This document shows positions 1 to 55,977 of a stretch of DNA of 64,000 nucleotides, one piece after another; the first letter of the stretch is position 1, and each line of letters opens with the position of its first letter. The translations under genes and the position numbers were made by a program. The stretch lies in assembly GCA_003224175.1 (NCBI GenBank), contig QHYQ01000243.1:8835-72834 (forward strand), given 5' to 3'. This stretch comes from Acidobacteriota bacterium. Lineage in GTDB: Bacteria; Acidobacteriota; Terriglobia; Acidiferrales; UBA7541. A model generated the notes under the pieces. That model saw nothing but the letters and a program-made list of their open reading frames with translations, was not told the origin of the DNA and did no database searches.

Positions 1-1245
1 TGCGTGCCCACTCGTATTGCCTGCCACGCATTCGTCCAGCAGCACGCGCCAGCGGCTCAGCCCCGCTCGTTTGAGAGCATATTCACTCGGTTGAGTGGCC
101 GAACCCCCTGGCGAATCAGAAATATCATCGACGAGGCGCATAAAGGCGTAGATGGCGCAAAGAGCATCGCGCTTCGGACGCGGCAGCATATAGAACGCAT
201 AGTAAAAATTGCTGGCAGCGTTTCGCGCCACGCTTCGACAACGCTCGTAAGAGCGGTCTATCGCGCGGCTATTCTTTTCGCGCACCCCAGTGCTGGCTGC
301 GCCGGTGTCGCTCATCACAGTCTCTAAACTTTTGCGCGCACCCCGTTCCGGAAGAATGCGGCTCGCCAGCGTACGGCCAAGGAGGACCAGGCGTTGGGGT
401 CCACTGATGGCGGGTCGTTTCACCAAGGTGTTGTAGCCCATCGACTCGATGGCGTCCAGAACCGCCATACCACCTCGGCTGAAGAGCTCGATGTCCACGC
501 TCAAACGCCAGTCCACACTGGCAGCCAGTGGCCATCCTTGGGCAAAAAGTTCCCGCGTGCGCGCAATTAACTCGCGCATCAGCGCCGCGTAGTGCTGGTC
601 AAAAACGCGACCTTCGATGTCTTTCACTTCCAGTCCGTGACGTTGTAGGGCGTCAACCGGAATATAGATCCGCCCTTTCTCCAAGTCTCGTGAGACATCC
701 TGCCAAAAATTGGCGAGCTGCAAGGCCGTGCACGTGGCATCGGAGAGCCGCTGCCGTTCTGCGTCGCGGTAACCGCATAAATAAAGCACCAACCTGCCGA
801 CCGGGTTTGCCGAATAACGGCAGTAGCTGAGCAGGCCCTCCCAGGTGTCGTAGTGATGTACGGTCTGGTCCTGCCGGAAGGCGGTCAGCAAATCGCGGAA
901 GGGTTGCGCAGGAATATCGAACTCACGAATTGTTTGCGCGAGCGCCACGAAAACGGGATGGCAGGGCTGGCCTTCATAGCAAAGCGTTAACTCGTTCCCC
1001 CACCAGTCGAGCAGTTCCAATGCATGCGCCGCGTCTCCCACTTCGTCCCCAAGATCGTCCGCCCAGCGGCAATAGGCGTAAACATTATAGAAATGCCGAC
1101 GCAGGTCCCTCGGCAACATCCAGGATACGACATGAAAATTTTCGTAATGGTGCGTCGCCAGCCAACGCGTGTAATGCTCCGCCTCCGCCACGGGGCAGCC
1201 TGGCGGCGGCAACGACGCAGCAATCTCGATTTCAGGTGAGCGCAT
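1..1245 (-). CDS. hpnC-hpnD: Squalene/phytoene synthase family protein with the 3' end beyond the left edge. An HpnC-like module (1245..316) runs in frame into an HpnD-like module (315..1).
   Basis: This ORF is not in the ORF track because it runs off the edge. Minus-strand ATG at 1245 gives MRSPEIEIAASLPPPGCPVAEAEHYTRWLATHHYENFHVVSWMLPRDLRRHFYNVYAYCRWADDLGDE...ALQLANFWQDVSRDLEKGRIYIP... It then continues ...KSLETVMSDTGAASTGVREKNSRAIDRSYERCRSVARNAASNFYYAFYMLPRPKRDALCAIYAFMRLVDDISD. I scanned every in-register triplet from 1 to 1245 and found no stop. Confidence 0.8.
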   Translation of the reverse strand, partial: MRSPEIEIAASLPPPGCPVAEAEHYTRWLATHHYENFHVVSWMLPRDLRRHFYNVYAYCRWADDLGDEVGDAAHALELLDWWGNELTLCYEGQPCHPVFVALAQTIREFDIPAQPFRDLLTAFRQDQTVHHYDTWEGLLSYCRYSANPVGRLVLYLCGYRDAERQRLSDATCTALQLANFWQDVSRDLEKGRIYIPVDALQRHGLEVKDIEGRVFDQHYAALMRELIARTRELFAQGWPLAASVDWRLSVDIELFSRGGMAVLDAIESMGYNTLVKRPAISGPQRLVLLGRTLASRILPERGARKSLETVMSDTGAASTGVREKNSRAIDRSYERCRSVARNAASNFYYAFYMLPRPKRDALCAIYAFMRLVDDISDSPGGSATQPSEYALKRAGLSRWRVLLDECVAGNTSGHA

Positions 1246-1280: not shown

Positions 1281-2366
1281 CTAGGGGATCACCGCGACTT
1301 TCATTTCGCCATTTCGATGCTTCATGTGTCGGAACATCGAAGGAAGTTCGCACAACGGCATTTCCGCATTGACGAAATCCCGGGCGCGAATTTCGCCGCG
1401 GGCGATGGCCTCCATCGCCTCCCGAATAAAACGTGGGGTGTGATGAAATGTAGACTTGATGGTGATCTCAGAATAGTGCAGTGCCGTAGGATCGAGCTCG
1501 ACCCGGGTGCCCTGCGGGCAGCCCCCGAAGAGATTCACTGTCCCGCCGCAACGGACCATCCGTATGGCCCAGTCCCAGGTACGCGGCGAGCCTACCGCCT
1601 CAATGACCGAATCAGCGCCCCGGCTGCCTTCTGTGAGACGGCGCACCGCGCTGATGGGATCAGAAAGGGTGCTGACATCAAAGGCAGCCCGCGCTCCCAT
1701 GCGCTCGGCCGCCTTCACCTGCCCAGGCCGCTTGCCCAGTGCAATGACGTTTACGCTACGGCACGAAAGCATACGGATAAATTTCAAACCGATCGGCCCG
1801 CAACCAATCAACACCGTGGTCTCGCCGGGCTGCACCCCGGTTTCGTGAATCCCCCGCAGGACGCACGCGAGCGGCTCCGCCATTGCGGCATCCATGAAGG
1901 ATACGTTTGACGGAATCTCCAGCATATTCTTCCGCACAATGCGGCCGGGGATGCGGATGTATTCAGCGTAGGCGCCGTTATTGAAGAGCAAATCCTCGCA
2001 AAGATTGCTGCGTTCATTGCGGCAAAAAAAACATGCTCCGCAAGGGGCAGAGTTTGCCGGCACCACACGTGTGCCTACAGCCAAATTCTCGGCAATCTCC
2101 GGGCCAACCTGCTCGACGACCCCGGCGAGTTCGTGCCCGAAGACCGCCGGCGGCGTGATCATCCGCGCATGATAACCGCGTTTCCAGACCTTGAGATCGG
2201 TGCCGCATGTGAGCGCGACCTTCACCCGCACCAGCGCTTCGTCGGGCGACAGAGCCGGGATATCGATCTTCTCGATTTTCAGATCTTCGCTGCCGTAGAG
2301 CACGGCGGCGGTCATATGCCCGCTTGCTTTGGTTTCCGTCAACGGCTGTGTCAGAGTTTCCATCAA
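1281..2366 (-). CDS. Zn-dependent alcohol dehydrogenase, MDR superfamily (sorbitol/threonine dehydrogenase-like)
   Basis: 361 aa. Catalytic-zinc motifs LTCGTD and FGHELAG are present, with the structural-zinc motif CGACFFCRNERSNLC and a GCGPIG nucleotide fold. It sits 35 nt upstream of hpnC on the same strand. Confidence 0.9.
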   Translation of the reverse strand: MMETLTQPLTETKASGHMTAAVLYGSEDLKIEKIDIPALSPDEALVRVKVALTCGTDLKVWKRGYHARMITPPAVFGHELAGVVEQVGPEIAENLAVGTRVVPANSAPCGACFFCRNERSNLCEDLLFNNGAYAEYIRIPGRIVRKNMLEIPSNVSFMDAAMAEPLACVLRGIHETGVQPGETTVLIGCGPIGLKFIRMLSCRSVNVIALGKRPGQVKAAERMGARAAFDVSTLSDPISAVRRLTEGSRGADSVIEAVGSPRTWDWAIRMVRCGGTVNLFGGCPQGTRVELDPTALHYSEITIKSTFHHTPRFIREAMEAIARGEIRARDFVNAEMPLCELPSMFRHMKHRNGEMKVAVIP

Positions 2367-2420
2367 TTCGAATTCCGCTCAGCAGATGTGATTAAGGCCA
2401 GTAAACCCGTGAAGGCCATA

Positions 2421-3521
2421 TCAAGGAATGACCAGAATTTTTAAAGAGTTGTTCGGCCGTGCAGCAAGCGACAATGCCGCGCCGAATTCCTCTAGAGAAA
2501 AACGATGTGTGATGAGCGCTGATACGGGCAGCACCCGCGAAAAGACCAGGTTCGCCGATTCCTCCTGGCGATCCACAGCGGCGCTGTAACTCCCGAGGAT
2601 CTCCTTCTCCGCCACTCCTATATCGGCGGCGGGAAATTCGACCTTCATGTGCGGATCATTCTGGGCAAAGAGAAGCACACGGCCGCCAGGCCGCGCGGCG
2701 GCGAGCGCCTCGGACACCGCTGACGGCAAGGGAACCGCGACCAGCACCGCGTCTGCTCCACGGCCGGCCGTACGTTTCCGGACTTCCTCCGCAAGCGAAC
2801 AAGCCAGAGGATCAAATGTTGCCTCCGCACCCAAGCGCTCGCTGGCGGCCCGCCGCTCCGGCATCGGGTCGGTGGTAAACACACGAGCGCCGGCCCGCCG
2901 TGCGAGCAACATCAGCAGCAGGCCGATGGGTCCCTGGCCGATAACCACTACAGCCTCACCGGCCTCCACGTGCGCCTTCTCCACTGCTTTCAGACAGGTG
3001 TTCACGGGCTCCACGAATGTTGCTTCTTCGAAGCTTATGCCCGGCGGAATTTCCACCATTCCTCGCTCGACGATACACGGCATTGCCCGCACGTATTCCG
3101 CAAAGCCTCCCCCATTGGGCTCGAAACCTGCTGTGAGTCCCACTGTCTTGTAAGCCAGGCATTGTGAGAAAAGCCGCCGGTCACAATAGAAGCAAGCACC
3201 GCAAGGCACGTGATGAAAACTGACGACGCGGTCACCTTCCTTCCAACGGCGAACCCCGCGGCCAACGGCGGCGATAGTGCCGGCGACCTCGTGTCCGAAT
3301 ATCTGTGGAGGAGCAATGAAGCCATGCTGTATTTTTTTCAGATCTGTCCCGCAGATGCCGCAGGCGGCCACCCGAATCAGGACTTCGCCCTCGGCGATTG
3401 CTGGAACAGGAACATACTCGGTCGCCACGCGCCCCGGGCCGCGATACACTCCCGCACGCATCTTCTCGGGTAGCGTAGCGCGGTGTTCGGCGTCTGCGAT
3501 GAGATTGGGCGCGATGGTCAT
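2421..3521 (-). CDS. Zn-dependent alcohol dehydrogenase, MDR superfamily; paralogue of the preceding gene
   Basis: Motifs ACGICGTD, FGHEVAG, CGACFYCDRRLFSQC and GQGPIG are present. I prefer the ATG at 3521 (MTIAPNLIAD...), which overlaps the hpnG stop as ATGA. The 398-aa track ORF starting at 3617 would overlap hpnG by 100 nt. Confidence 0.88.
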   Translation of the reverse strand: MTIAPNLIADAEHRATLPEKMRAGVYRGPGRVATEYVPVPAIAEGEVLIRVAACGICGTDLKKIQHGFIAPPQIFGHEVAGTIAAVGRGVRRWKEGDRVVSFHHVPCGACFYCDRRLFSQCLAYKTVGLTAGFEPNGGGFAEYVRAMPCIVERGMVEIPPGISFEEATFVEPVNTCLKAVEKAHVEAGEAVVVIGQGPIGLLLMLLARRAGARVFTTDPMPERRAASERLGAEATFDPLACSLAEEVRKRTAGRGADAVLVAVPLPSAVSEALAAARPGGRVLLFAQNDPHMKVEFPAADIGVAEKEILGSYSAAVDRQEESANLVFSRVLPVSALITHRFSLEEFGAALSLAARPNNSLKILVIP

Positions 3522-4273
3522 GTCGCAGCCACCATCTCCGATTGCGAAAGGTCGAGGCGGGCGCTGAGCAGCTGGAGATAACGATCCAGAAAATCGGCCA
3601 GTTCCCGGGCCGCGCACCTGCAGTCGCGGGCGAAGCGCAACAGCGCGGGCAGGTGCTGCGGCTGACGGATCATTTGGCTCACTAAAGCACTCATCCTGAT
3701 TTGCCCGCGTGCATCGCGGGCTTGATCGAAATCATAAGGCAAGGAGCATGAGGCCCTGTCACTCACGGAACGAATCACTGCGGCGCGCACGCCATGGCGA
3801 GCCGCTTCCGCCAGGATCACGAAGCTCTCCATCTCCACAGCATCTGCTTCACCGGCCAACGCCATCTTCTGGGCGGCATCCGCAATCAGATGCTCCGAGG
3901 TAAGAAATCGATCGACCTGTCGCGCTCCCGCATCTTGGGCGACCGCAAGAAGCTGATGATCACTCGCCACAGCGAGTTCCCGTTCCGCCTGCAGCACGAC
4001 GCGCCCTGCGAGAACCGCGCCCACGCCCAATTCCGCGTTCAACGCGCCCGCAAACCCGCTCGAAATGCAGATATCAGCCGGTGACTCGAGTGCCCAGCGC
4101 GTCGCTTCTGTCGCGGCGGTCGTGCCCATGCCGGTCAGCAGCGCCCGGACTGTGTTGCCGGCGATCTCCGAGAGATACAGCGCGAATGGTTCGTGCGCGA
4201 CCTGCCGGAAATCATGCTGCCGGCGCCAGGCTGCGAATTCGCTTGCTACCGCGAACGTTACCAGGATCTTCAT
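3518..4273 (-). CDS. hpnG: Hopanoid-associated phosphorylase/nucleosidase (PNP/UDP family)
   Basis: 251 aa, starting MKILVTFAVASEFAAWRR..., with a nucleosidase-like fold signature. It lies between hpnA and the dehydrogenases in the hopanoid operon. Confidence 0.7.
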   Translation of the reverse strand: MKILVTFAVASEFAAWRRQHDFRQVAHEPFALYLSEIAGNTVRALLTGMGTTAATEATRWALESPADICISSGFAGALNAELGVGAVLAGRVVLQAERELAVASDHQLLAVAQDAGARQVDRFLTSEHLIADAAQKMALAGEADAVEMESFVILAEAARHGVRAAVIRSVSDRASCSLPYDFDQARDARGQIRMSALVSQMIRQPQHLPALLRFARDCRCAARELADFLDRYLQLLSARLDLSQSEMVAAT

Positions 4274-4311: not shown

Positions 4312-5337
4312 TCAGGCCGCTCGTGCAGCCGCGATATGAGCGCGACGCGCGATTCGCACATACCCGTTCGATTCGTACCAGCGTACTGCCCGTTCGAACG
4401 CCGCGGTGACCGGACTGGGCAAAAATCCCAGCTCAGCCCGGGCTCTTTGCGTATTGACGAACATGCTGTGCCGCGCCATCTTCACGCCCTCGAGGGGAAT
4501 CCGCGGTTCGCTTCGGATCAGTCGCGATAGAGCTGCGTTCGCATAGCCCGCTGCCAGAGCCAAAACATGCGGAACCCGTATGCGCGGTGTGGGGCGTCCC
4601 GATACTTGGGAAAGAATCTCCAGGGCCTGCTTCAGTGTCAGGTTCTCGCCACCAAGAATGTAGCGTTCGCCTATGCGCCCGCGCCCGGCGGCCAGAAGGT
4701 GGCCCGCAGCGGCGTCTTCGACCGGCACAAAATTCAAACCCGTGTCCACGTAAGCAGGCATGCGACCATTCAAAAAATCAATGATGATCCGACCCGTCGG
4801 CGTCGGCTTGGCATCACCCGGTCCGACCGGCGTCGTGGGGTTCACGACAACCACCGGCAATCCTGCATCGGCCGCTTTCCACGCCTCCTGCTCGGCGAGC
4901 CACTTCGAACGCTTATACGCGCCGACCATCTCATCAAGCGAAGTAACGAGACTCTCATCAGGCAGCACGCCGTCGCGCGGAACCGCCACGGTACCCACCG
5001 TGCTCGTATAAACGAATTTTTCTACCTTGGCACGCCGTGCGGCCTCGAGTAAGTTCCGCGTGCCCTGGACATTTGATTCATAAATCTCACGCGGGTCGCG
5101 CGCCCACAAACGGTAATCGGCGGCCAAATGATAAACGATGCGCACACCAGCCACGGCCTTGTCTAACGAGGCCGGATCGCGCAGATCGCCCGAGACGCGC
5201 TCGACGGCCAACCCTTCGAGCAGTCTCGTCGGGCTTGTCGGCCGGAGTAGCACGCGGATCCGCTCTCCACGTTCCGCGAGCAGCCGCACGACGTGGTTAC
5301 CCAGAAAACCACTCGCGCCTGTGACTAAAGTCGTCAT
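4312..5337 (-). CDS. hpnA: Hopanoid-associated NAD-dependent sugar epimerase/dehydratase family protein
   Basis: 341 aa, starting MTTLVTGASGFLGNHVVRLL (Rossmann GxxGxxG) with a YKRSK active-site motif. Its start overlaps the hpnH stop as ATGA at 5334-5337. Confidence 0.75.
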   Translation of the reverse strand: MTTLVTGASGFLGNHVVRLLAERGERIRVLLRPTSPTRLLEGLAVERVSGDLRDPASLDKAVAGVRIVYHLAADYRLWARDPREIYESNVQGTRNLLEAARRAKVEKFVYTSTVGTVAVPRDGVLPDESLVTSLDEMVGAYKRSKWLAEQEAWKAADAGLPVVVVNPTTPVGPGDAKPTPTGRIIIDFLNGRMPAYVDTGLNFVPVEDAAAGHLLAAGRGRIGERYILGGENLTLKQALEILSQVSGRPTPRIRVPHVLALAAGYANAALSRLIRSEPRIPLEGVKMARHSMFVNTQRARAELGFLPSPVTAAFERAVRWYESNGYVRIARRAHIAAARAA

Positions 5338-6208
5338 AGGACCCGCAGTCTTCCATCAGAAGAGACCAGATCCTGCGGCGGAGGCATCGCCGCTCCGTCT
5401 CCATGGCCGAGGCCGTCGCCGCTCGTGCCATTCGCATTTTTTCGATTCCCGCCCATACGGCCGGAAAATTGCCACTTCAGCATCTTCCAGGTGTCGCCGA
5501 GTTGGCGCTTTGCGCCCAGGATGGGCGACGGTTCAAAGCCAACGTGCATCATGCAATCCGCGCAGCGCGGATCATTTCCCGGGCCGTACTTCTCCCAGGG
5601 CGTCTTTTCAATCAGTTCCCGGTACGAGCGGTAGTGATCATCGGTAATCAGGTAGCACGGTCCCTTCCAGCCGCGCGGGTTGAAGGTGGGCGTGCCCCAG
5701 GCAGTACAGTCCAGTTCCCGCTCACCGCGCAGGAAGTCAAGATAGATCGGCGAAACCATGAGGTTATATTTGTCCAGCAGCGCCAGCGCCTTGCGAAACT
5801 TGTCGCGCACATCTTCAGATGTACGTTCCAGAAAAAACTCGTCGTTGGCCGGAACTCATGCAGGCGTTTGCGGATGAACATTCCATTGGTACAAAGAATG
5901 ATGTGTCTTCCCCGCGCCAGAATCTCGCTGTTCAGCCGGCCGATTTCCGGGTAAATCATTGGTTCGCCGCCGCAAATCGAAACGACCGGCGCACCGCAAT
6001 CGTCCACCGCGGCGAGGCATTGTTCAACGCTCAGTGACTCGTTGATCGTCGACTTGTACTCCCGGATGCGACCGCAACCCGTGCAAGTCAGATTGCACGC
6101 GTGCAGCGGCTCAAGCATCAGCACCATGGGAAATTTCGCGGTTCCGCGCAGACGCTTGCTTGCAATGTATCGCGCCAGATTCGCGGTCATCTTCAACGGG
6201 TATCTCAT
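5334..6208 (-). pseudogene. hpnH: Radical SAM adenosylhopane synthase HpnH, disrupted: two fragments in different frames and the central part apparently missing
   Basis: Fragment 6208..5648 reads KFPMVLMLEPLHACNLTCTGCGRI...SICGGEPM...ILCTNGMFIRKRLHEFRPTTSFFWNVHL and then becomes R/W/C-rich out-of-frame sequence. Fragment 5810..5334 reads VRDKFRKALALLDKYNLMVSPIYLDFLRGERELDCTAWGTPTFNPRGWKGPCYLITDD...RCADCMMHVGFEP, which matches the C-terminal HpnH domain. The frames switch between 5810 and 5858. An A6 run lies at 5832-5837. Confidence 0.65.
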
Positions 6209-8229
6209 CCATTCCCTCGCATGGCGCCGCGGAGATGTTCTCTCTCCGGGCGAATCTCGAAAGCATGAAACTCCTTCACATCCTCCAGCAAGTTGCGGTA
6301 TCGCGAGAGCGCATACAACGGGAAATAGTTCCGATAAAGGTGATACTTCAAATAAAAGACTCCGGGAAAGCCGGTTCCCGTAAACTGCTGTTCATTCCAG
6401 GAACCATCGGCGTTCTGCTGTTCGAGCAGATGCCGCACAGCCTGCGTCACCGCCGGATCGTCCCGGTCGGCTCCGGCCAAGAGGCCAATCAACCCCCAGG
6501 CAGTTTGCGATGGTGTACTGGCGCCACGGCCTTTCAATTTTGGATCGTAATAAGAAGCGATCGATTCCCCAAAACCACCATCGTCATTCTGCACCGCGCG
6601 AAGCCATGCCACGGCACGCAGGCAATAATCTCGCGCACTTTGGGCAATCGCTTCGAACGCGCGCAAAACACCGCTCGTGCCGTAGACGTAGTTCACGCCC
6701 CAGCGTCCGTACCACGGGCCATCCGGGCACTGCTCTCTTATTAGATAAGTTACCCCCCGTTTCACCACCGGGTGAGTTGCGGACCAGCCGTTCCTTCCGA
6801 GACATTCGAGTACCCGTGCCGTCACGTCTGCAGACGACGGATCAATCATGGCTTTGTGATCCGCAAACGGAATTTCTGTGAGCAGCCCGCGATCGTTATT
6901 GTGATCAAAAGCGCCCCAGCCGCCATCGCGGTTTTGCATGGAGAGTAGCCAATCCACGCCGCGACGAGCCGCTGCGGCAAGGCGCTGCCGGTCCGGATAG
7001 TCGACACGTTGCAGGGCCATCATTACAAAGGCGGTGTCGTCCACGTCCGGGTAGAAGTCGTTGCGGAACTCAAAAACCCATCCGCCTGGCCGCCCCTTGC
7101 GATTCTTCATTTGCCAGTCGCCCGAACCGAGAACCTGATTCTTGAGCAGCCATTCGGCAGCGCGTATCAGTGCAGGATGGTCAGCCGCCAGCCCGGCCTC
7201 TTCCAAAGCGACCAGGGCAATCGCCGTGTCCCAGACCGGCGAGATACAGGGCTGCAAGCGCAGGGTTTCTCCCTCTTCGATTTCATACCGAGCGAGTTGG
7301 CCAATTTCCCTGGCGGTCAAGGGATCGTCGGGAGAATACCCCAGCGCTACCAGCGCAAAGACGGCGTTCATCATCGCGGGATAGATGGCCCCCAATCCAT
7401 CGCTGCGCTCGAGATGCTCAAGCAGCCAGCGTTGTGCCTGCCGCAACGCGCGTTGTCGCAGCGGCTTCCAAGGCACGCGCTCGTAAAGTTTCAAAGCACG
7501 ATCAAGCGCCAGGAAGAAATTTCGCCAGGAAAAAAAATGATCGCCCCAGGCAAATGCAGCAGCCCGAACCCTGGAGTCGCGGAAGAGTTCGTCGACGCGC
7601 ACGGGCTCGCGCAATTTCCAGTCGGGCTTGTGAGCATAAAGAATGGCCAGGGGGATAACAATTCCGCGCGTCCACGAAGACATTTCGTAGATATTGATCG
7701 CAAACCACGATGGAAGCAGCATCAGCTCTGGAGGAATCGCGGGCACCATTTCCCAAACGACCGCGCCAACCAGAGCAAGATAAAAGCGCGTGTAAGAGTT
7801 CGTCGATTCCAGGCCGCCGAGCTGCAGCACACGCGCACGAGCACGTTCCATGTGCGCTTGATCGGGACGGTCTCCGGCAAGCTTCAGAGCAAAGTAAGCT
7901 TTGACCGTAGCATTGAGCTCGGATGGACCGCCGAAGTAAATGTTCCATCCACCGTCAGGCAATTGACGTTGGCGGATGTAATTGGCGAGCTTGCTTATGC
8001 GCTGGGGATCGGCTTTATCGAGGATATGCAAATAGAAGATGTAATCTGATTCAAGAGTCGTATCCGCCTCGAGCTCTCCCTGCCAGTAACCATCGGAGGC
8101 TTGCAGGGAAAGCAGATGTTTCACCCCCCGCCCGATAGCTTCAGTCAGTTCATTCGTGAAAGCGCCAGTCGCAGTAATCTGCGGCTGGCCTGTGACAGCC
8201 TCAACGCCGAATCTGGTGCTGGACGCCAT
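6205..8229 (-). CDS. shc: Squalene-hopene cyclase
   Basis: 674 aa. QW-type repeats are present (DGYWQGELE, PDGGWNIYFG, QNRDGGWGAF, QNDDGGFGES, NADGSWNEQ) together with the catalytic DVDDTA motif (YPDVDDTAFVMMAL). The stop overlaps the hpnH start as ATGA. Confidence 0.97.
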   Translation of the reverse strand: MASSTRFGVEAVTGQPQITATGAFTNELTEAIGRGVKHLLSLQASDGYWQGELEADTTLESDYIFYLHILDKADPQRISKLANYIRQRQLPDGGWNIYFGGPSELNATVKAYFALKLAGDRPDQAHMERARARVLQLGGLESTNSYTRFYLALVGAVVWEMVPAIPPELMLLPSWFAINIYEMSSWTRGIVIPLAILYAHKPDWKLREPVRVDELFRDSRVRAAAFAWGDHFFSWRNFFLALDRALKLYERVPWKPLRQRALRQAQRWLLEHLERSDGLGAIYPAMMNAVFALVALGYSPDDPLTAREIGQLARYEIEEGETLRLQPCISPVWDTAIALVALEEAGLAADHPALIRAAEWLLKNQVLGSGDWQMKNRKGRPGGWVFEFRNDFYPDVDDTAFVMMALQRVDYPDRQRLAAAARRGVDWLLSMQNRDGGWGAFDHNNDRGLLTEIPFADHKAMIDPSSADVTARVLECLGRNGWSATHPVVKRGVTYLIREQCPDGPWYGRWGVNYVYGTSGVLRAFEAIAQSARDYCLRAVAWLRAVQNDDGGFGESIASYYDPKLKGRGASTPSQTAWGLIGLLAGADRDDPAVTQAVRHLLEQQNADGSWNEQQFTGTGFPGVFYLKYHLYRNYFPLYALSRYRNLLEDVKEFHAFEIRPEREHLRGAMRGNG

Positions 8230-8399: not shown

Positions 8400-8429
8400 A
8401 TTATCAGGCACTATTGAGTTGCCGGTCAA
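8400..8429 (-). promoter_or_regulatory. Candidate sigma70-type promoter for the hopanoid operon
   Basis: The minus strand reads TTGACC (8429..8424), an 18-nt spacer, then GATAAT (8405..8400), about 170 nt upstream of the shc ATG. This is a sequence match only. Confidence 0.3.
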
Positions 8430-8483: not shown

Positions 8484-9515
8484 TCAACGTTCCGGTGTTT
8501 GCTGCTCCAACTTGCGCACACGCTCGGCCAACTCCGGCAGACGCGTAAACCATCCGTACTGTTCTTTGAACCGTTGAATGGGGCGGGCCGGCGTGCCCCA
8601 CACGGTCTGTCCGCGACGAATTATTTTCCCACTCGGAATGCCTGCCTGAGCACCGGCAATACATCCCGCTTCTAACTGGCAGTGATCGGCGATGCCCACC
8701 TGACCTCCGATGACCACATCGCTCCCAATAAGGGAGCTTCCGGCAATTCCAGTCTGTGCCGCCACCAGCGTTCGCTCGCCAACTTGGACGTTGTGTGCCA
8801 GGTGTACGAGATTATCCAGTTTTACCTGGGGCGCCAATCGCGTGATCCCCAGCGAACCGCGAGCAATCGTAGTGTTGGCGCCGATTTCCACATCGTCAGC
8901 GATCTCCAAAGTGCCAGCCTGCGGAAACTTCCAATGTTTGCCTTGGTCTGTCACGTAGCCAAACCCATCGCAACCCAAAACCGCTCCCGAATGGACGATA
9001 ACGTTGCTGCCCATCTTGACGCCGGCGTAAAGCGTCACGCGAGGATATAGCCGGCAAGTCCGGCCAAGCCTAGTTCCTCGTCCGAGAAAGCAAAAAGCTC
9101 CTATCTGCGTCTCCTCGCCAATTTCAACTTCCTCCTCGATGACTGCAAAAGGACCTACCGCGGTGCCGCGACCCAGATGTGCGGATTCGGCTATAACGGC
9201 CGTTGGGTGCACTCCAGAGGCGACTGGAAAGGCAGGAACAAGCCAGGCCGCGGCACGTGCAAAGGCGAGCTTCGGCTGCGCGGCGACGATTAGAGTCTTG
9301 CCGGACATAGCGAGGTCAGGTGAGGTGATAACGCAGCGCGCATTTGATCGAACCACGCGCTCCAGATGACGGCGGGAATCGAGGAAAACTATATCGTCCG
9401 CTTGAGCCGCCTCAGGACTGGCTACCCCTTTCAACATCAGGGCACTCTCACCTTGAAGGGGGCACCCGAGAAACTCCGCCAGATTTCCGGCTGTTCGATT
9501 CGCCATGATCACCAC
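8484..9515 (-). CDS. lpxD: UDP-3-O-acylglucosamine N-acyltransferase
   Basis: 343 aa. An N-terminal LpxD-type domain is followed by a long run of hexapeptide (left-handed beta-helix) repeats (IGANTTIARGS..., VGERTLVAAQTGIAGSSLIGSDVVIGGQVGIADH). Confidence 0.9.
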   Translation of the reverse strand: MVIMANRTAGNLAEFLGCPLQGESALMLKGVASPEAAQADDIVFLDSRRHLERVVRSNARCVITSPDLAMSGKTLIVAAQPKLAFARAAAWLVPAFPVASGVHPTAVIAESAHLGRGTAVGPFAVIEEEVEIGEETQIGAFCFLGRGTRLGRTCRLYPRVTLYAGVKMGSNVIVHSGAVLGCDGFGYVTDQGKHWKFPQAGTLEIADDVEIGANTTIARGSLGITRLAPQVKLDNLVHLAHNVQVGERTLVAAQTGIAGSSLIGSDVVIGGQVGIADHCQLEAGCIAGAQAGIPSGKIIRRGQTVWGTPARPIQRFKEQYGWFTRLPELAERVRKLEQQTPER

Positions 9516-9536
9516 CGACCTCCTTAACCGGGATAT

Positions 9537-10478
9537 TTAGTCGCCTCGCGTCTGTTTAGCATACTCACGCTGTTCGTCGGGATATATTGGCAATTCATGA
9601 GCAGGGCGGGTCTTCCAGCGCCGATGTACCCAGAGCCATTGGTCCGGAAAGCGCCGCACATAGTCCTCGATCACCTCATTGAAACGCGTCGAATAGTTAT
9701 GGATATCGCTCTGCTCGTCCTCGGTGGCAGTGAGCTCGAGCGCCGGCTCGTAACGCAAGCGGTACTTGCGTATTCGCGGATCCCAGTAGTTATAAGCAGG
9801 AACTACCGCCGCTCCAGTGCGTCGCGCCAGTCGTGCGATTCCGCTGGTCGTGGCGGCGGGAATGCCGAAGAAGTCTGCGAAAACGGCTTCGTGCGGAACT
9901 GTGTTCTGGTCCGCTAGAACTCCGATGACGCCTCCCTCGTGAAGAATTCGAAGAATACTGCGTGCCGACTCGTTTTTCTTGACCGGCCTGTTCCCTGATG
10001 CGCAACGGTAACGGTTCACGAGCGCGTCGACACGGGGATTGTCGATGGGCCGCACCAGGAAATAAATCGGACCGCTGTAAAGCGCGTGCGCGAATGGCTC
10101 GAGCTCCCACGCACCCATATGGCCGGTCAAGAACAGGACCCCTTTGCCGCGCCGTTCCGCTGCAGCGAAATTTTCGAAACCATCGAGAATGATCGCTTTT
10201 TCAATGTTGCCGCGCGTGTAGCGCGGCAAGCGTGCGAATTCTGCCGCCATCCAGCCCAGGTTGCGCAGCATGCCCTTCAAAATGTCACGGCGTGCGGTCT
10301 CCGGCAGTTCGGGGAAAGCCAGCCGCAGATTGAATTCTGCGGCTCTTCGAAGCGGCGGCCGAATGGCGAAGAGACAATTGGCAACGAGCACGCCGATGGC
10401 TCGAGCCATCGTCCGAGGTAAACATCCCAGGAATTTGAGCATGATCCAAGCGGAAGCATACTCGAGACGCTCGCGCAT
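9537..10478 (-). CDS. Lipid A biosynthesis (LpxL/HtrB family) lysophospholipid acyltransferase
   Basis: 313 aa. The N-terminal membrane anchor, an HMGAWE (H-x4-E) acyltransferase motif and the family-typical C-terminus PDQWLWVHRRWK are present. It is adjacent to lpxD. Confidence 0.8.
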   Translation of the reverse strand: MRERLEYASAWIMLKFLGCLPRTMARAIGVLVANCLFAIRPPLRRAAEFNLRLAFPELPETARRDILKGMLRNLGWMAAEFARLPRYTRGNIEKAIILDGFENFAAAERRGKGVLFLTGHMGAWELEPFAHALYSGPIYFLVRPIDNPRVDALVNRYRCASGNRPVKKNESARSILRILHEGGVIGVLADQNTVPHEAVFADFFGIPAATTSGIARLARRTGAAVVPAYNYWDPRIRKYRLRYEPALELTATEDEQSDIHNYSTRFNEVIEDYVRRFPDQWLWVHRRWKTRPAHELPIYPDEQREYAKQTRGD

Positions 10479-13163: not shown

Positions 13164-14300
13164 CTACCCCCTCTCTCCCGATTCCCTTTGGGAACCGCCC
13201 TTAGCCACTCGGGTCAAAGAAACGTGCTTCCCGGTTTGTTCGGCCGCTCTCTCCGCCCGCGCGAGATTGCGCAGTTCGCCCATGGACAATCCTTCGTGGA
13301 TCAGCAGCGGAACGCCCACCAATGTTGCCGCGGCGAAGGTGATCAGCCACAGCACGATGGCAATCGCCGCCGCGGGCTCCTGCTCTACTTCAAAGATGGT
13401 GGTCAACGCGATGATGCTGGCCACCTGAGCGCCGCCTCCCACGCCCGGCAATTGCAATACGGAGCCCACTAGCGTCACAGCCAATAGCAGCATCGCCCCG
13501 GGGAATGTCACGTCCGATTGAACGAAGTCGCTGGCGAACGCGCGCGCAATCCAAAAGTAGATCAGCGCCACCAATCCCCAATGCGCACACGTGTAAACCA
13601 CCGCAAGCAACAGATCCGAGGGCCCGCGAATCGCCTGCAATCCTTCGCTGAAACCGGCGATGATCTTCGCCAGCCAACCCTTCACTCCTCCCGCACGGTG
13701 CCAGTAATCGAGACGCCGTTCGAGCACTCCCGCACCATGCAGCCGGAAATAAACCATCAGCACTACCCCGGCCGCCAGCGCGCCCAGCAAAAGCCAGCCA
13801 CCCGCGTGGGCGTTCTCCACCCAATCCGTGTTCAATCCCGCATCCGCGAGCTTTTCCTCAAATACGAGAAGGCTCAACGCCGCCAGGAGCCCGGCGGCGC
13901 CGAAATCTATGATTCGCTCGAGGACCCAAACACCGAAGATGCCAGGAACGGGCTGATGGCTCTTGCGTGCGAGCAACAAGGGACGAACGGGTTCGCCGGC
14001 GCGGCCCAGAATGAATATGGCGGCGAAGCCCATCACGGTAGCCTTGTAAACGTCCCCAAAGCCGGTCGACCCTAAATAGCGCGAGAGCCGCTGCCAACGG
14101 AGCGAGCGCAGCGCATAAGCGCCATAAACGGCGATGACTGATAGCAGCAAAAGCCGGACGTTGGCCTGGCCAACTGCGTGGATGAAGCGGCTCCAGGTAA
14201 AGTCGCCTAGGTGAATCTTGCGGCGGGAAAGATAGGCAAGCGCGGCCAGCGCCCCTAAAGCTAATGCCGCCAGGAGAAGTTTGCGAAGAAAGCCGCGCAT
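13164..14300 (-). CDS. Polytopic membrane protein, lysylphosphatidylglycerol-synthase-TM-like (UPF0104) family
   Basis: 378 aa with multiple hydrophobic helices. The family call comes from overall composition and pattern only. Confidence 0.5.
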   Translation of the reverse strand: MRGFLRKLLLAALALGALAALAYLSRRKIHLGDFTWSRFIHAVGQANVRLLLLSVIAVYGAYALRSLRWQRLSRYLGSTGFGDVYKATVMGFAAIFILGRAGEPVRPLLLARKSHQPVPGIFGVWVLERIIDFGAAGLLAALSLLVFEEKLADAGLNTDWVENAHAGGWLLLGALAAGVVLMVYFRLHGAGVLERRLDYWHRAGGVKGWLAKIIAGFSEGLQAIRGPSDLLLAVVYTCAHWGLVALIYFWIARAFASDFVQSDVTFPGAMLLLAVTLVGSVLQLPGVGGGAQVASIIALTTIFEVEQEPAAAIAIVLWLITFAAATLVGVPLLIHEGLSMGELRNLARAERAAEQTGKHVSLTRVAKGGSQRESGERG

Positions 14301-52967: not shown

Positions 52968-55028
52968 TTGGACCTATTTGGATCATTTGCCCTGCTGCTG
53001 GCATTTCTGTGCGGGCTGTATGCCTTTGGCGGGGGCATCGCGGCCATCGTCACGCGGCGTCCGCTGCTGATCAAGAGCGCACGCCACGCCGGCATGGCCG
53101 TTTGCGTTCTTATTTGGCTAGGCTTCGGCAGCCTGGCTTATCTTTTCCAGACTGACAACTTCTCCATGGCCTACGTCGTGGAGCACAGCAACCGCACGCT
53201 CCCGGCGTTTTTCAAATTTGCGGCCATCTGGGCGGGCCAGCAAGGTTCGCTGCTGTTCTGGAGCTTCCTGCTGTCGATTTACGTTTTCTCGGTTTTGGTC
53301 ACCTACCGCGGCAAGCATCCCGAACTGATGCCTTACGTCGGGGTGGTCATGGTGGGGGTGCAGCTTTTTTTCCTGACGCTGAATAATTTCATCGCCAGCC
53401 CTTTTCAGATATTGGGTTCGGCCGCGCCCAGCGGGGCCCTGCAGTGGATTCTGCGCGCCGACGGCAATGGCCTCAATCCGCTGCTGCAATATCCGGAGAT
53501 GGTCATCCATCCGCCGATTCTGTATTCCGGCTACACCGGCTTTACCATTCCGTTTGCGTTCGCGCTGGCCGCGCTGCTGGGCCGTTATCCCGGGGAGAAG
53601 TGGATTCACCTCACGCGCCGCTGGACCATGATCGCCTGGGGCTTCCAGGGCGTGGGCATTTTGCTGGGCGCGCATTGGGCCTATGCGGTGCTCGGCTGGG
53701 GCGGTTACTGGATGTGGGATCCGGTGGAGAACGCGTCGCTGATGCCCTGGCTGACGGGCACGGCGTTTCTGCATTCGGTGATGATGCAGGAAAAGCGCGG
53801 GATGATGCGGGTGTGGAACGTATGGCTGGTCTTCACCACGTTTTTGCTCACGATTTTCGGAACGTTCCTGACGCGCAGCGGGGTGGTGAATTCCGTGCAC
53901 GCCTTCGCGCAATCGAGCATCGGCCCGTGGTTCCTGAGCTTCATCGGCCTGGTGCTGCTGGTGTGCTTCGTTTCCTTCTGGCGCAATCGCGACTATCTGC
54001 GCAGCGACAACACGCTGGATTCGCTGGTTTCGCGCGAGTCGAGCTTCCTGTTCAACAATTTGATTTTGCTGGTGGCCTGCGTGGCGGTGATCTCCGGCAC
54101 ATTGTTTCCGGTGCTCTCGGAATGGGTGCGCGGAACCAAGATCAGCGTGGGCGTGCCGTTCTTTAACACCATCAATCTGCCCATCGGCCTGTTTTTGCTT
54201 TTCCTGACGGGCGTGGGACCGCTGCTGGCCTGGCGGAAGACGTCCCTGGCCAGCCTGCGCAAGAACTTCGGCGGGCCGCTGCTGATCGGCATGGTGGTCG
54301 GCGTCGTGGGGATGGCGCTGGGCCTGCGCAATTTCTACGTGGTGGTTTGCCTGGCTCTTTCCGTCTTCGTGACGCTGACGATTCTGCTGGAGTTCTATCG
54401 CGGCGCGCGCGTGATCGCCTCGCGTGGCAATTCGAATCTCCTTTCCGGCGTCGCGCAACTCACCATGCGCAATACCCGCCGTTACGGCGGCTACGTGGTG
54501 CACTTCGGCATCGTGCTGATCTTCATCGGCATCTCCGGCACGGCCTTCAATCAGGATAAGCAGGCGGACATGCCGCCGGGCGCGCAGATGCAGATCGGGT
54601 CCTATCGGCTCACGCACCAGACTTTCGACAGCACGGAACTGCCGAATTATACTTCCGAGCGCGCCACCATTGCCGTCGATCGCGGCGGTAAGCAGATCAT
54701 CATGCTGTATCCGGAAAAGCGCTTTTATCCGTCGAACCAGGAATCGGGAACCATGGTGGCCATCTACTCCACGCTGAAAGAAGATCTGTACGTCGTCTAT
54801 GCCGGCCACAGCCCGGAGACGCAGCAGCCGGTGATCCACGCCTATTTGAATCCGCTGGTGAAATGGATTTGGCTGGGCGGGGCCATTGTGGTGCTGGGCA
54901 CTTTGCTGGCGCTGGTGCCGAACCGCCAGCCCATGCTGGCGCTGCGCGCCGTCCAGGAACCTTCCCGCGCCGCGCCGGCGCTGTCTCCCGCGCCCGCCCC
55001 GGTGCAGCATTACGATGGCCATGATTGA
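52968..55028 (+). CDS. ccmF: Cytochrome c heme lyase subunit CcmF
   Basis: 686 aa, polytopic, with the WWD motif WGGYWMWDPVENASLMPWL. The start codon is TTG. Confidence 0.95.
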   Translation: MDLFGSFALLLAFLCGLYAFGGGIAAIVTRRPLLIKSARHAGMAVCVLIWLGFGSLAYLFQTDNFSMAYVVEHSNRTLPAFFKFAAIWAGQQGSLLFWSFLLSIYVFSVLVTYRGKHPELMPYVGVVMVGVQLFFLTLNNFIASPFQILGSAAPSGALQWILRADGNGLNPLLQYPEMVIHPPILYSGYTGFTIPFAFALAALLGRYPGEKWIHLTRRWTMIAWGFQGVGILLGAHWAYAVLGWGGYWMWDPVENASLMPWLTGTAFLHSVMMQEKRGMMRVWNVWLVFTTFLLTIFGTFLTRSGVVNSVHAFAQSSIGPWFLSFIGLVLLVCFVSFWRNRDYLRSDNTLDSLVSRESSFLFNNLILLVACVAVISGTLFPVLSEWVRGTKISVGVPFFNTINLPIGLFLLFLTGVGPLLAWRKTSLASLRKNFGGPLLIGMVVGVVGMALGLRNFYVVVCLALSVFVTLTILLEFYRGARVIASRGNSNLLSGVAQLTMRNTRRYGGYVVHFGIVLIFIGISGTAFNQDKQADMPPGAQMQIGSYRLTHQTFDSTELPNYTSERATIAVDRGGKQIIMLYPEKRFYPSNQESGTMVAIYSTLKEDLYVVYAGHSPETQQPVIHAYLNPLVKWIWLGGAIVVLGTLLALVPNRQPMLALRAVQEPSRAAPALSPAPAPVQHYDGHD

Positions 55029-55566
55029 CGCACATCACGCCAACTTGCCGTGTCCTTCTGAGGTCAGGGCTTGGCGCATCGCCGTGCTGATTCTTCTCGC
55101 CGCGGCCATGGCCGCCGCGCCTCTTTTCGCGCAAGCTCCGGTGCAAACCTCCGACCGCGCGCGCACGCTGGGCAAGCAGCTCATGTGCACGTGCGGCTGC
55201 GGCGATACAGCCGGATCGTGCAGCCATCCCGGCGCGGCCTTTTCCGGCCCCTGTGAGATCGCCAAGGCCAAGCTGAAGGAAGTGGACGAGCGCATGTCGC
55301 GCGGCGAATCCGACAGCGCCATCCTGCAAGCTTTCGTGCAGGAGTATGGCGAAGCGGCGCTGGCTGCGCCGCCCGCACGCGGCTTCAACTGGTTCGCCTA
55401 TACCTTCCCGGCCGTCGCCTTTGCCATCGGTCTGGCCTTGGTGCTGATGGTTATTCGCCAGTGGCGGCATCGTATGGTCATGGCGCCGGCTTCCGGGCCG
55501 GGGGTTTCCGCGGAGATGCTGGAACACGCGCGCCGCCAGATCGAGCGCGAAATGCCGGATGATTGA
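55021..55566 (+). CDS. ccmH: CcmH/NrfF-like cytochrome c biogenesis protein with an atypical Cys cluster
   Basis: The signal is IAVLILLAAAMAAAPLFA, followed by LGKQLMCTCGCGDTAGSCSHPG...CEIAKAKLKEVDERMSRGESDSAILQAFVQEYGEAALAAPP plus a C-terminal transmembrane helix. It overlaps the ccmF end by 8 nt. Confidence 0.65.
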   Translation: MIDAHHANLPCPSEVRAWRIAVLILLAAAMAAAPLFAQAPVQTSDRARTLGKQLMCTCGCGDTAGSCSHPGAAFSGPCEIAKAKLKEVDERMSRGESDSAILQAFVQEYGEAALAAPPARGFNWFAYTFPAVAFAIGLALVLMVIRQWRHRMVMAPASGPGVSAEMLEHARRQIEREMPDD

Positions 55567-55584
55567 AGGCTGGACTCCCGCCGC

Positions 55585-55977
55585 ATGGCAATGAACCTCC
55601 TGACCATCCGCTTCGTGACCGCCGATATCGACACGCTGGCGGTGCTGGCCTGCGTCGCGCTCACGGCCGCCACGCTGATTTTTGTCTTCCTGATCCAGCC
55701 CGATCGCGGCGATGCGGCTCCCCGCCGCTCGCGGCTCGATCAGCTGATGGAGCGCCGCGACATCATTTACGACAATTTGCGCGATCTGAAGTTTGAATAC
55801 CGCACCGGCAAATTCGCCGAAGAAGATTACGAGCAGATGAAGCAGACCCTGGAAGCCGAGGCCGCGCTGGTGCTCGCGGAAATCGAGCGCGTCACCGAAA
55901 GCCCCGGGTTATTGCCGCGCTCCGACGCGGCCGTGCAGGGCCGCGCGGTGCCCGCAGGCCCCCGGGCAGGGAGTTGA
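55585..55977 (+). CDS. Small membrane protein in the ccm operon, resembling the N-terminal part of CcmI
   Basis: 130 aa with one transmembrane helix (LAVLACVALTAATLIFVFLI) followed by RRDIIYDNLRDLKFEYRTGKFAEEDYEQMKQTLEAEAALVLAEIE. Confidence 0.45.
   Translation: MAMNLLTIRFVTADIDTLAVLACVALTAATLIFVFLIQPDRGDAAPRRSRLDQLMERRDIIYDNLRDLKFEYRTGKFAEEDYEQMKQTLEAEAALVLAEIERVTESPGLLPRSDAAVQGRAVPAGPRAGS

What the first reader, a model, noticed from the sequence alone, without database searches (positions are those of the whole stretch)
1281..3521. Two Zn-dependent alcohol dehydrogenases inside the hopanoid operon, translationally coupled to hpnG
Seen in the sequence: two paralogous MDR-type Zn-ADHs lie between hpnG and hpnC on the same strand. 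Both have complete catalytic and structural zinc motifs. The first starts with an ATGA overlap on the hpnG stop (3518-3521). Gaps to the neighbouring genes are only 54 and 35 nt.

Established knowledge: HpnH makes adenosylhopane and HpnG removes adenine to give ribosylhopane. The NAD(P)H-dependent reduction of ribosylhopane (open-chain aldehyde form) to bacteriohopanetetrol has been shown biochemically. To my knowledge it has no assigned gene.

Inference: an aldehyde- or alcohol-reducing enzyme co-translated with HpnG is a plausible candidate for that missing step, or for another side-chain redox modification.
Basis: inference. Interest (0 to 1): 0.65.

Follow-up and report, generated by a model that had tools for sequence, protein, structure and literature searches.

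The report
Paired zinc dehydrogenases in hopanoid operon
Two zinc-dependent dehydrogenase genes sit between hpnG and hpnC in an acidobacterial hopanoid operon, and the same gene pair turns up in hopanoid gene clusters of at least three distant bacterial lineages, which makes it a testable candidate for the still unassigned step that produces bacteriohopanetetrol, although its function is not established.

Summary
Two intact MDR-type Zn-dehydrogenases, 32% identical to each other, lie on the minus strand between hpnG and a fused hpnC-hpnD. ADH1 is 3521-2421 and ADH2 is 2363/2366-1281.

These genes are not new. They are ug1 and ug2 of Sinninghe Damsté et al. 2017 (PMC5462960), listed there with function 'not established'. 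A 2025 paper still states that the ribosylhopane-to-BHT enzyme has not been established.

New findings here:
- hpnA-hpnG-ADH1-ADH2 is kept in 80 of 80 species-level acidobacterial genomes.
- The same order holds in subdivision-1 relatives that are only 48% identical.
- The ADH1-like/ADH2-like tandem is an old module. It also sits beside hpnC-hpnD(-hpnE) in an Armatimonadota MAG and beside hpnC-hpnD and hpnH in a third lineage.
- In four other lineages the pair occurs with no hpn gene on the short contigs available.
- Both genes are under strong purifying selection.
- ADH1 has an NAD-type cofactor signature in all 81 sequences compared. ADH2 has an NADP-type signature in all 81.

No characterised enzyme is more than about 31% identical to ADH1. 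The reductase idea is plausible but unproven, and the pair cannot be the universal enzyme.

The parts
2421..3521 (-). ADH1 (= ug1): 366-aa Zn-dependent MDR dehydrogenase with an NAD-type cofactor signature (Asp218)
   Evidence: ORF and sequence. Pfam ADH_N and ADH_zinc_N. Best NCBIfam hits are IolM and Tdh, both far below cut-off. Asp218 is invariant in 81/81 sequences. AlphaFold2 pLDDT 90.4. Best PDB matches are 30-31% identical.
1281..2366 (-). ADH2 (= ug2): 360-aa Zn-dependent MDR dehydrogenase (ATG at 2363, TTG at 2366) with an NADP-type signature (G210-K211-R212)
   Evidence: It aligns with the NADP(H)-dependent ketose reductase 1E3J at the cofactor-discriminating position. G/A-K/R-R is present in 81/81 sequences. 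It has the lowest dN/dS in the operon, 0.04-0.07.
3518..3521 (-). ATGA overlap of the hpnG stop codon and the ADH1 start codon
   Evidence: Read directly. A 4-nt overlap is found in 38 of 80 related loci, and most of the rest have gaps of 20 nt or less (start codons picked heuristically).
3518..4273 (-). hpnG-like nucleosidase/phosphorylase
   Evidence: TIGR03468 HpnG is the best hit at 115 bits, below the 187-bit cut-off. Pfam PNP_UDP_1. It evolves fast: median 37.6% identity across 80 loci.
4312..5337 (-). hpnA (SDR-type 'hopanoid-associated sugar epimerase')
   Evidence: TIGR03466 scores 454 bits, above the cut-off.
5334..6208 (-). hpnH (adenosylhopane synthase), disrupted by a 253-bp internal deletion and frameshift near position 5816
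   Evidence: The two ORF pieces match HpnH profile positions 1-132 and 219-315. Alignment to L001 shows the deletion.
6205..8229 (-). shc (squalene-hopene cyclase)
   Evidence: 674-aa ORF. SHC homologues lie at the same position in 79 of 80 loci. Pfam SQHop_cyclase hits its SD1 counterpart.
1..1245 (-). hpnC-hpnD in-frame fusion; the 3' end lies beyond the window
   Evidence: 415 codons without a stop. TIGR03464 HpnC scores 375 bits, with a second SQS_PSY stretch. This fusion is reported for subdivision-2 Acidobacteria.
8400..8429 (-). sigma-70-like promoter match upstream of shc; possible operon promoter
   Evidence: Consensus scan, 10 of 12 matches. No terminator-like site falls in the ADH1/ADH2 or ADH2/hpnC gaps. 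Weak evidence only.

Best explanation
ADH1 and ADH2 are a conserved two-enzyme Zn-MDR redox module of the extended-hopanoid pathway.

Inferred mechanism, none of it shown:
- HpnH adds the 5'-deoxyadenosyl unit to diploptene.
- HpnG removes adenine, giving ribosylhopane, which is chemically a 5-substituted 5-deoxyribose.
- The module then does NAD(P)-linked redox chemistry on that ribose-derived chain.
- My committed reading is that the NADP-type member, ADH2, reduces the open-chain C-35 aldehyde with NADPH to give bacteriohopanetetrol.
- The NAD-type member, ADH1, which is translationally coupled to hpnG, works with it. It is either a partner subunit of a hetero-oligomer or a dehydrogenase acting on the adjacent secondary carbinol (C-34).

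Shown here: gene order, coupling, conservation, cofactor signatures and family membership. Inferred: the substrate and the direction of the reaction.

My estimates: roughly 0.5 that the module acts on the hopanoid side chain at all, and roughly 0.3-0.35 that one of the two is the ribosylhopane reductase.
For: Gene order and coupling:
- hpnA-hpnG-ADH1-ADH2 is kept in 80/80 species-level genomes, and 78/80 have hpnC on the locus (76 of them within 300 nt of ADH2).
- 4-nt overlaps occur between hpnG and ADH1 in 38/80 loci and between ADH1 and ADH2 in 63/80.
- Subdivision-1 relatives, 48-49% identical, have the same order.
- The literature reports that ug1 stays with hpnA-hpnG even in SD3, where the other clusters are scattered.

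Linkage in other lineages:
- The pair is beside hpnC-hpnD-hpnE in Armatimonadota.
- It is fused by 4-nt overlaps into A-B-hpnC-hpnD next to hpnH in a third lineage.

Selection:
- dN/dS is 0.08-0.15 for ADH1 and 0.04-0.07 for ADH2.
- Median identities of 70-71% exceed those of SHC, HpnA and HpnC.

Enzyme features:
- Both enzymes keep all catalytic and zinc residues.
- ADH2 carries G-K-R at the position where the NADP-dependent ketose reductase 1E3J has A-R.
- The closest families act on sugars and polyols: IolM, Tdh, sorbitol, xylitol and galactitol-1-P dehydrogenases.

The open step and a chemical precedent:
- The step has no assigned gene.
- 5-deoxyribose is reduced to 5-deoxyribitol in rats (PMC6079011).
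Against: - No biochemical data exist.
- The pair also occurs with no hpn gene on the contig: queF-A-B, A-B-GGDEF, and two others.
- hpnG adjacency is confined to Acidobacteria.
- Alphaproteobacteria make BHT, and no candidate gene was seen near their hpn clusters. C. thermophilum lacks ug2. So the pair cannot be the universal enzyme.
- The nearest characterised MDRs oxidise or reduce secondary alcohols and ketones, not aldehydes.
- ADH1, the gene coupled to hpnG, is NAD-type.
- ADH2's NADP-type signature is not universal. L095 and L108 carry Asp or Glu at that position.
- In this very window hpnH is broken.
Confidence: 0.4

Rival explanations
1. Side-chain tailoring rather than BHT formation. 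NAD-type ADH1 oxidises the C-34 hydroxyl of BHT, the secondary OH next to the terminal CH2OH. This is the position that sorbitol- and xylitol-type MDRs attack. NADP-type ADH2 then re-reduces the ketone. The result would be the 34-epimer or a keto or lactone derivative.
For: - An NAD-type plus NADP-type pairing is conserved in 81/81 acidobacterial pairs and in four further lineages.
- The closest characterised relatives are secondary-alcohol polyol dehydrogenases.
- Both 22R,34R and 22R,34S BHT isomers exist in bacteria. I did not find any enzyme named for making them.
- Two enzymes are more than a single aldehyde reduction needs.
Against: - I found no report of BHT-34R or keto-BHPs in Acidobacteria.
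- The published acidobacterial analyses used Rohmer degradation, which erases this information.
- Cofactor complementarity fails in L095 and L108.
Confidence: 0.2
2. The pair makes or interconverts a soluble sugar, polyol or ketose (possibly phosphorylated) that feeds composite hopanoid head groups or another envelope component. It does not act on the hopanoid itself.
For: - A sister-clade member is fused to an NTP-transferase and lies next to a CDP-alcohol phosphatidyltransferase. That is a head-group activation context.
- The family hits are all soluble sugar or polyol enzymes.
- The pair occurs on contigs without hpn genes.
- hpnJ lies in the SD1 cluster.
Against: - There is no glycosyltransferase or nucleotidyltransferase beside the pair in the hpn clusters.
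- Tight coupling to hpnG and hpnC has no obvious rationale under this reading.
Confidence: 0.15
3. The pair works with HpnC/HpnD(/HpnE) in squalene supply, for example on hydroxysqualene or a prenol.
For: hpnC-hpnD is the only neighbour shared by all three hpn-linked lineages, with a 4-nt B/hpnC overlap in L108. Damsté et al. also noted that ug2 associates with hpnC-D-E.
Against: - Per PMC5462960, hpnC, hpnD and hpnE expressed in E. coli had their functions in squalene formation established. I recall from the original report that these three alone suffice.
- HpnE is present alongside the pair.
- Polyol-type MDRs are an odd choice for a C30 hydrocarbon alcohol.
- In SD3, ug1 stays with hpnG rather than hpnC.
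Confidence: 0.1
4. No hopanoid role. This is a generic two-gene dehydrogenase cassette that was inserted into an ancestral operon and is retained by vertical inheritance.
For: - The cassette exists in unrelated contexts.
- The 80 loci come from a single phylum, so their synteny is partly shared ancestry.
Against: - Hopanoid-cluster linkage in three distant lineages, with different flanking genes, is hard to get by inheritance alone.
- Overlapping stop and start codons tie the pair to hpn genes on both sides.
- The order persists even though hpnH is present or absent at this site and hpnC is displaced in some loci.
Confidence: 0.1

Closest known systems
ug1 and ug2 of acidobacterial hopanoid clusters (Sinninghe Damsté et al. 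2017, PMC5462960)
   Same: Same genes. ug1 is a Zn-dependent ADH of about 370 aa after hpnA-hpnG. ug2 is a Zn-binding ADH of about 350 aa before hpnC. The fused hpnCD is typical of subdivision 2.
   Different: That paper lists the function as 'not established' and proposes HpnA for the ribosylhopane-to-BHT step. It does not treat ug1 and ug2 as one module, report their cofactor signatures, or report them outside Acidobacteria.
4EJ6/4EJM, putative zinc-binding dehydrogenase of Sinorhizobium meliloti (structural-genomics target)
   Same: Best sequence and fold match for both ADH1 and ADH2: E 2e-39 and 2e-44, Foldseek TM 0.84-0.90.
   Different: Only about 30% identical (Foldseek, ADH1 model), and itself uncharacterised. 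It lacks the conserved xTAGF insertion of the ADH1 clade.
Polyol-type MDRs: L-threonine 3-dehydrogenase, sorbitol dehydrogenase/ketose reductase (1PL6, 1E3J), galactitol-1-P 5-dehydrogenase, IolM
   Same: Same fold, the same catalytic Cys/His/Glu zinc site, a structural-zinc lobe, and the Rossmann motif. The NAD-versus-NADP discriminating position behaves as in TDH (Asp) and 1E3J (Ala-Arg).
   Different: All NCBIfam equivalog scores are far below cut-off, for example IolM 165 against 450 and Tdh 158 against 458. Identity is 31% or less. The known substrates are small soluble secondary alcohols, not lipids.
Mammalian polyol pathway (NADPH aldose reductase followed by NAD+ sorbitol dehydrogenase): a functional analogy only
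   Same: An NADPH-type reducer and an NAD-type Zn-MDR oxidiser acting in turn on an aldose and then on its polyol. This is the pattern the two cofactor signatures suggest.
   Different: Aldose reductase is an aldo-keto reductase, not an MDR. The analogy is recalled from general biochemistry and was not tested here.

Membership tests
MDR superfamily, Zn-dependent alcohol/polyol dehydrogenases | GroES-like ADH_N domain plus a Rossmann ADH_zinc_N domain | tested here: met
   Pfam PF08240 and PF00107 are above the gathering score for both proteins. The AlphaFold2 model has pLDDT 90, and the top 50 PDB fold matches listed are nearly all MDR-type dehydrogenases.
MDR superfamily, Zn-dependent alcohol/polyol dehydrogenases | Catalytic zinc ligands (Cys, His-Glu, distal Glu) and a four-Cys structural zinc lobe | tested here: met
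   Present in both proteins and conserved across 81 orthologues each.
L-threonine 3-dehydrogenase (TIGR00692 / NF003808) | Score at or above the curated equivalog cut-off | tested here: not met
   ADH1 scores 157.6 against 458 and 155 against 380. ADH2 scores 130 against 458.
scyllo-inosose 3-dehydrogenase IolM (NF041097) | Score at or above the curated equivalog cut-off | tested here: not met
   Best NCBIfam hit for both proteins, but 164.7 and 150.6 bits against a cut-off of 450.
Sorbitol / L-iditol 2-dehydrogenase (the JGI label K00008 on homologues) | Orthology to characterised sorbitol dehydrogenases | tested here: not met
   1PL6 and 3QE3 match only at E about 1e-30 and about 25% identity (ADH1 model), no better than many other MDRs. 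The label is automatic.
Acidobacterial ug1/ug2 (PMC5462960) | Zn-ADH of about 370 aa directly after hpnA-hpnG, and Zn-ADH of about 350 aa directly before hpnC | tested here: met
   Window layout. The same layout is found in 80/80 loci and in SD1 loci.
Ribosylhopane reductase (activity known, no gene family defined) | NADPH-dependent reduction of ribosylhopane to BHT | not testable with these tools
   This needs an enzyme assay. Only cofactor signatures could be read: ADH2 is NADP-type and ADH1 is NAD-type.
Ribosylhopane reductase (activity known, no gene family defined) | Co-occurrence with hpnH and hpnG wherever BHT is made | tested here: inconclusive
   Linked to hpn genes in Acidobacteriota, Armatimonadota and a third lineage. 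However, no candidate gene was seen near alphaproteobacterial hpn clusters, ug2 is absent in C. thermophilum, and the pair is present on contigs with no hpn genes. Whole-genome profiling was not possible.

The most novel reading that the evidence does not exclude
The ADH1-like/ADH2-like pair is the long-sought enzyme system that converts ribosylhopane to bacteriohopanetetrol in Acidobacteriota, Armatimonadota and other lineages. It would act as a hetero-oligomeric Zn-MDR recruited from an older module that reduces 5-deoxyribose-type sugars. Ribosylhopane is a 5-substituted 5-deoxyribose. Other phyla would use a non-orthologous reductase.
Probability: 0.3. Interest if true: 0.8.

Novelty: new member of a known kind. 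Interest (0 to 1): 0.55.

Why it matters
Bacteriohopanepolyols are major bacterial membrane lipids and the precursors of geohopanes, which are abundant molecular fossils.

The step from ribosylhopane to BHT is the one core reaction of side-chain biosynthesis without a gene. The origin of BHT stereoisomers used as environmental proxies is also unexplained.

A gene pair that is embedded in hopanoid clusters in three distant lineages and is under strong selection gives concrete candidates to express and assay. If confirmed, it would let BHT-making capacity, or isomer-making capacity, be read from genomes of abundant soil bacteria.

If the pair turns out to be a tailoring or sugar-supply module instead, that would still assign a function to two conserved 'unknown genes' of the acidobacterial hopanoid cluster.

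Tried and rejected
- Equivalog assignment failed. Tdh, IolM, galactitol-1-P dehydrogenase, Ahr and the other models are all far below cut-off.
- PDB sequence and fold searches gave no characterised close relative. The best match is an uncharacterised structural-genomics protein at about 30% identity.
- I looked for an HpnG::ADH fusion as Rosetta-stone evidence:
  - P0131 is an NTP-transferase fusion instead.
  - P0196 has a low-complexity N-terminus.
  - P0191 reads through from an HpnG-like C-terminus into an ADH1-like protein, but it is a 249-aa fragment and may be a gene-calling artefact.
  - P0390 is a frameshift-ridden assembly.
- Cyanobacterial ADH1-like genes (43% identical) are single genes and are not near hpn genes. 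They neither support nor refute the idea.
The scan with P0122 alone gave only 10 loci.
- Liu et al. 2014 (PMC4245026) could not be opened.
- I found no literature on BHT isomers in Acidobacteria, and no dehydrogenase candidate in the 2025 synteny preprint.
- The terminator and promoter scan is at background level and adds little.
Full report
**1. What is in the window**

All genes below lie on the minus strand:
- shc, 8229-6205
- hpnH, 6208-5334
- hpnA, 5337-4312
- hpnG, 4273-3518
- ADH1, 3521-2421 (366 aa)
- ADH2, 2366/2363-1281 (360 aa)
- an ORF starting at 1245 that runs off the window start without a stop

The ADH1 start codon overlaps the hpnG stop codon as ATGA at 3521-3518.

NCBIfam names the neighbours as follows:
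- HpnA: 454 bits, above cut-off.
- HpnG: best hit, but 115 bits against a cut-off of 187.
- HpnC plus a second squalene/phytoene-synthase stretch. The last ORF is therefore an in-frame hpnC-hpnD fusion.

Both ADHs carry Pfam ADH_N and ADH_zinc_N. They are 32% identical to each other. The catalytic Cys, the His-Glu pair, the distal Glu, the four-Cys structural-zinc lobe and GxGxxG are present in both.

**2. The genes are already in the literature, without a function**

Sinninghe Damsté et al. 2017 (PMC5462960) described three hopanoid gene clusters in Acidobacteria:
- cluster C: hpnA-hpnG-ug1
- cluster A: ug2-hpnC-hpnD-hpnE
- cluster B, around shc and hpnH

Their Table S1 lists ug1 as 'Zn-dependent alcohol dehydrogenase (ca. 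370 AA)' and ug2 as 'Zn-binding alcohol dehydrogenase (ca. 350 AA)'. Both are marked 'Not established'.

They also report the hpnC-hpnD fusion as typical of subdivision 2. For the ribosylhopane-to-BHT step they suggested HpnA, not ug1 or ug2.

The closest genome to the window is an 'Acidobacteria bacterium gp2' MAG, 91% identical over ADH1. That fits subdivision 2.

[quoted passage not shown] A 2026 review figure even calls the step non-enzymatic.

**3. Linkage within Acidobacteriota**

A scan of one genome per GTDB species with ADH1 found 349 relatives. The best 80 (66-91% identical) were fetched with 10-kb flanks. tblastn with the window's proteins gave these results:
- hpnA-hpnG-ADH1-ADH2 is in the same order and on the same strand in 80 of 80 loci.
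- shc lies upstream in 79.
- hpnC is found on 78 loci, and in 76 it starts within 300 nt of the ADH2 stop.
- hpnH lies between shc and hpnA in 52 loci and is absent from that site in the rest.

With heuristic start-codon picks, hpnG and ADH1 overlap by 4 nt in 38 of 80 loci. ADH1 and ADH2 overlap by 4 nt in 63 of 80.

Median identity to the window proteins over the 80 loci:

| Protein | Median identity |
|---|---|
| ADH1 | 69.7% |
| ADH2 | 71.4% |
| HpnC | 67.0% |
| HpnA | 64.8% |
| SHC | 63.1% |
| HpnG | 37.6% |

Pairwise dN/dS against four close relatives is 0.08-0.15 for ADH1 and 0.04-0.07 for ADH2. ADH2 has the lowest value in the operon.

Subdivision-1 relatives (Terracidiphilus-like), whose proteins are only 48-49% identical, have this order: ispH-shc-hpnH-ug3-hpnA-hpnG-ADH1-ADH2-hpnC-hpnD-hpnE, with hpnJ nearby.

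**4. The pair is an old module that reaches beyond Acidobacteria**

A search of 1.84 billion cluster representatives gave full-length relatives at 41-49% identity. Many of them share a conserved xTAGF insertion with ADH1. Their genomic contexts are:

| Lineage | Context |
|---|---|
| Armatimonadota MAG | threonine-aldolase-like gene, A, B, small ORF, hpnC (343 bits), hpnD, hpnE (375 bits) |
| Low-GC lineage (P0126, L108) | A, B, hpnC (322 bits), hpnD with 4-nt overlaps, and a convergent hpnH fragment (203 bits) at the contig end |
| High-GC soil lineage (P0122) | WYL regulator, queF, sometimes proline dehydrogenase, A, B; no hpn gene within 7-9 kb |
| P0134 | A-B, with queE 2.4 kb away |
| P0125 | A-B followed by a GGDEF gene |
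| P0135 | A-B next to another MDR |

In each case the first gene is closer to ADH1 and the second to ADH2.

A neighbour-joining tree puts all partnered A proteins in one clade and all B proteins in another. The duplication is therefore older than these lineages.

The sister group of the A clade has two kinds of member:
- single cyanobacterial genes (43% identical) that are not near hpn genes
- an NTP-transferase::A-like fusion next to a CDP-alcohol phosphatidyltransferase

Two caveats apply. The shared neighbour is hpnC-hpnD rather than hpnG. The module also exists where no hpn gene is visible on the short contigs.

**5. What the proteins themselves say**

No curated family claims them. The best NCBIfam hits are IolM and Tdh, at roughly a third of the cut-off score.

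The best solved structure for both is an uncharacterised Sinorhizobium zinc dehydrogenase, 4EJ6/4EJM. Next come threonine, sorbitol/ketose, butanediol and galactitol-1-P dehydrogenases, all at 31% identity or less. An AlphaFold2 model of ADH1 is confident (pLDDT 90.4) and gives the same neighbours by fold.

The cofactor-discriminating position after the second Rossmann strand differs between the two proteins:
- ADH1 has Asp218, which aligns with the Asp of NAD-dependent TDH. It is invariant in 81 of 81 sequences.
- ADH2 has Gly/Ala-Lys/Arg-Arg, aligning with Ala-Arg of the NADP(H)-dependent ketose reductase 1E3J. This holds in 81 of 81 sequences.

The A proteins keep Asp or Glu in all partnered lineages. 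The B proteins are NADP-type in the Acidobacteriota, Armatimonadota, P0122 and P0125 lineages. They carry Asp or Glu in the P0134 and P0126 lineages. These are signatures, not measurements.

**6. Interpretation**

The context evidence makes a role in hopanoid biosynthesis more likely than not. The module sits inside hpn clusters of three distant lineages with different flanking genes. It is joined to hpn genes by overlapping stop and start codons. It is among the best-conserved genes of the operon.

The only core reaction still lacking a gene is the reduction of ribosylhopane, which is chemically a 5-substituted 5-deoxyribose. Reduction of 5-deoxyribose to 5-deoxyribitol is known in animals.

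I therefore commit to a side-chain redox module in which the NADP-type ADH2 is the better candidate for the aldehyde reductase. ADH1 would be its partner or would act on the neighbouring carbinol. Confidence is 0.4.

The main rival is tailoring. Polyol-type MDRs attack the secondary hydroxyl next to the terminal CH2OH, which in BHT is C-34. An NAD-type oxidiser plus an NADP-type reducer is what a C-34 epimerisation would need. Both the 34R and 34S isomers of BHT occur in bacteria.

Weaker rivals are soluble head-group sugar metabolism, a role in squalene supply with HpnC/D, and simple inheritance without function.

The pair cannot be the universal BHT enzyme, for three reasons:
- No candidate gene was seen near alphaproteobacterial hpn clusters.
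- Chloracidobacterium thermophilum lacks ug2. The paper's abstract implies it still makes BHPs, though the sentence on detection is cut off in the text read.
- Model producers make BHT, and to my recollection their clusters contain no such genes.

**7. Verdict**

The functional idea is not in the papers I could search and remains untested.

This analysis adds five things:
- the module's strict conservation
- its reach across phyla
- its preferential attachment to hpnC-hpnD
- strong purifying selection
- complementary cofactor signatures

The proteins are new members of a known enzyme kind. Interest is moderate to fairly high, because the pair makes an open question directly testable.

Noticed in passing
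window 5334-6208 (-), junction near 5816: hpnH is broken. Compared with the closest genome (L001, 91% nt identity) the window lacks 253 bp. That removes HpnH residues of about 133-216 and shifts the frame. No second hpnH exists in the 64-kb window. This is either a real pseudogene, in which case the organism would make no C35 hopanoids from this locus, or an assembly artefact.
   Followed up: partly
window 1-1245 (-): hpnC and hpnD are fused in frame: 415 codons without a stop, then the window ends. The literature reports this for subdivision-2 Acidobacteria.
   Followed up: partly
window 3518-4273 (-); L001-L084: HpnG evolves much faster than its operon neighbours, with a median of 37.6% identity against 63-71% for the others. 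It scores below the NCBIfam HpnG cut-off in both SD2 and SD1 Acidobacteria (115, 117 and 89 bits against 187).
   Followed up: partly
L088, L097, L099, L104, L105 (queF); L095/L096 (queE): In one high-GC soil lineage, queF (preQ1 synthase) recurs directly upstream of the A-B pair. In another lineage queE lies 2.4 kb away. No explanation was found.
   Followed up: partly
L090 76-2649: An NTP-transferase::ADH1-like fusion protein (602 aa) lies directly after a CDP-alcohol phosphatidyltransferase gene in a low-GC contig. This suggests a polyol-phosphate head-group pathway in the sister clade.
   Followed up: partly
L093/L094 6946-7977: In the Armatimonadota MAG, a GntG-family/low-specificity L-threonine aldolase gene lies 23 nt upstream of the A-B pair.
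   Followed up: no
L002, L009, L017, L062, L072: Contigs carrying the acidobacterial-type operon (67-90% identical ADH1) are deposited under unrelated names: Rugosimonospora, Methylomirabilota, Binatus, Dormiibacterota and Baltobacteraceae. This probably reflects mis-binning or mislabelling of MAGs.
   Followed up: no
L087 (P0390): A 586-aa 'fusion' of ADH1 and ADH2 comes from an assembly in which shc, hpnA, hpnC and hpnE are also split into fragments. This is most likely frameshift noise in the assembly, not a real fusion.
   Followed up: partly
window 8484-10478 (-) and 13164-14300 (-): Lipid A genes lie directly upstream of shc on the same strand: lpxD-like and an LpxL-type lauroyl acyltransferase. 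A flippase-like LPG_synthase_TM membrane protein lies 5 kb further on.
   Followed up: no
window about 54000-60000: GC content rises to 0.64-0.68, against about 0.58 elsewhere in the window. Not examined.
   Followed up: no
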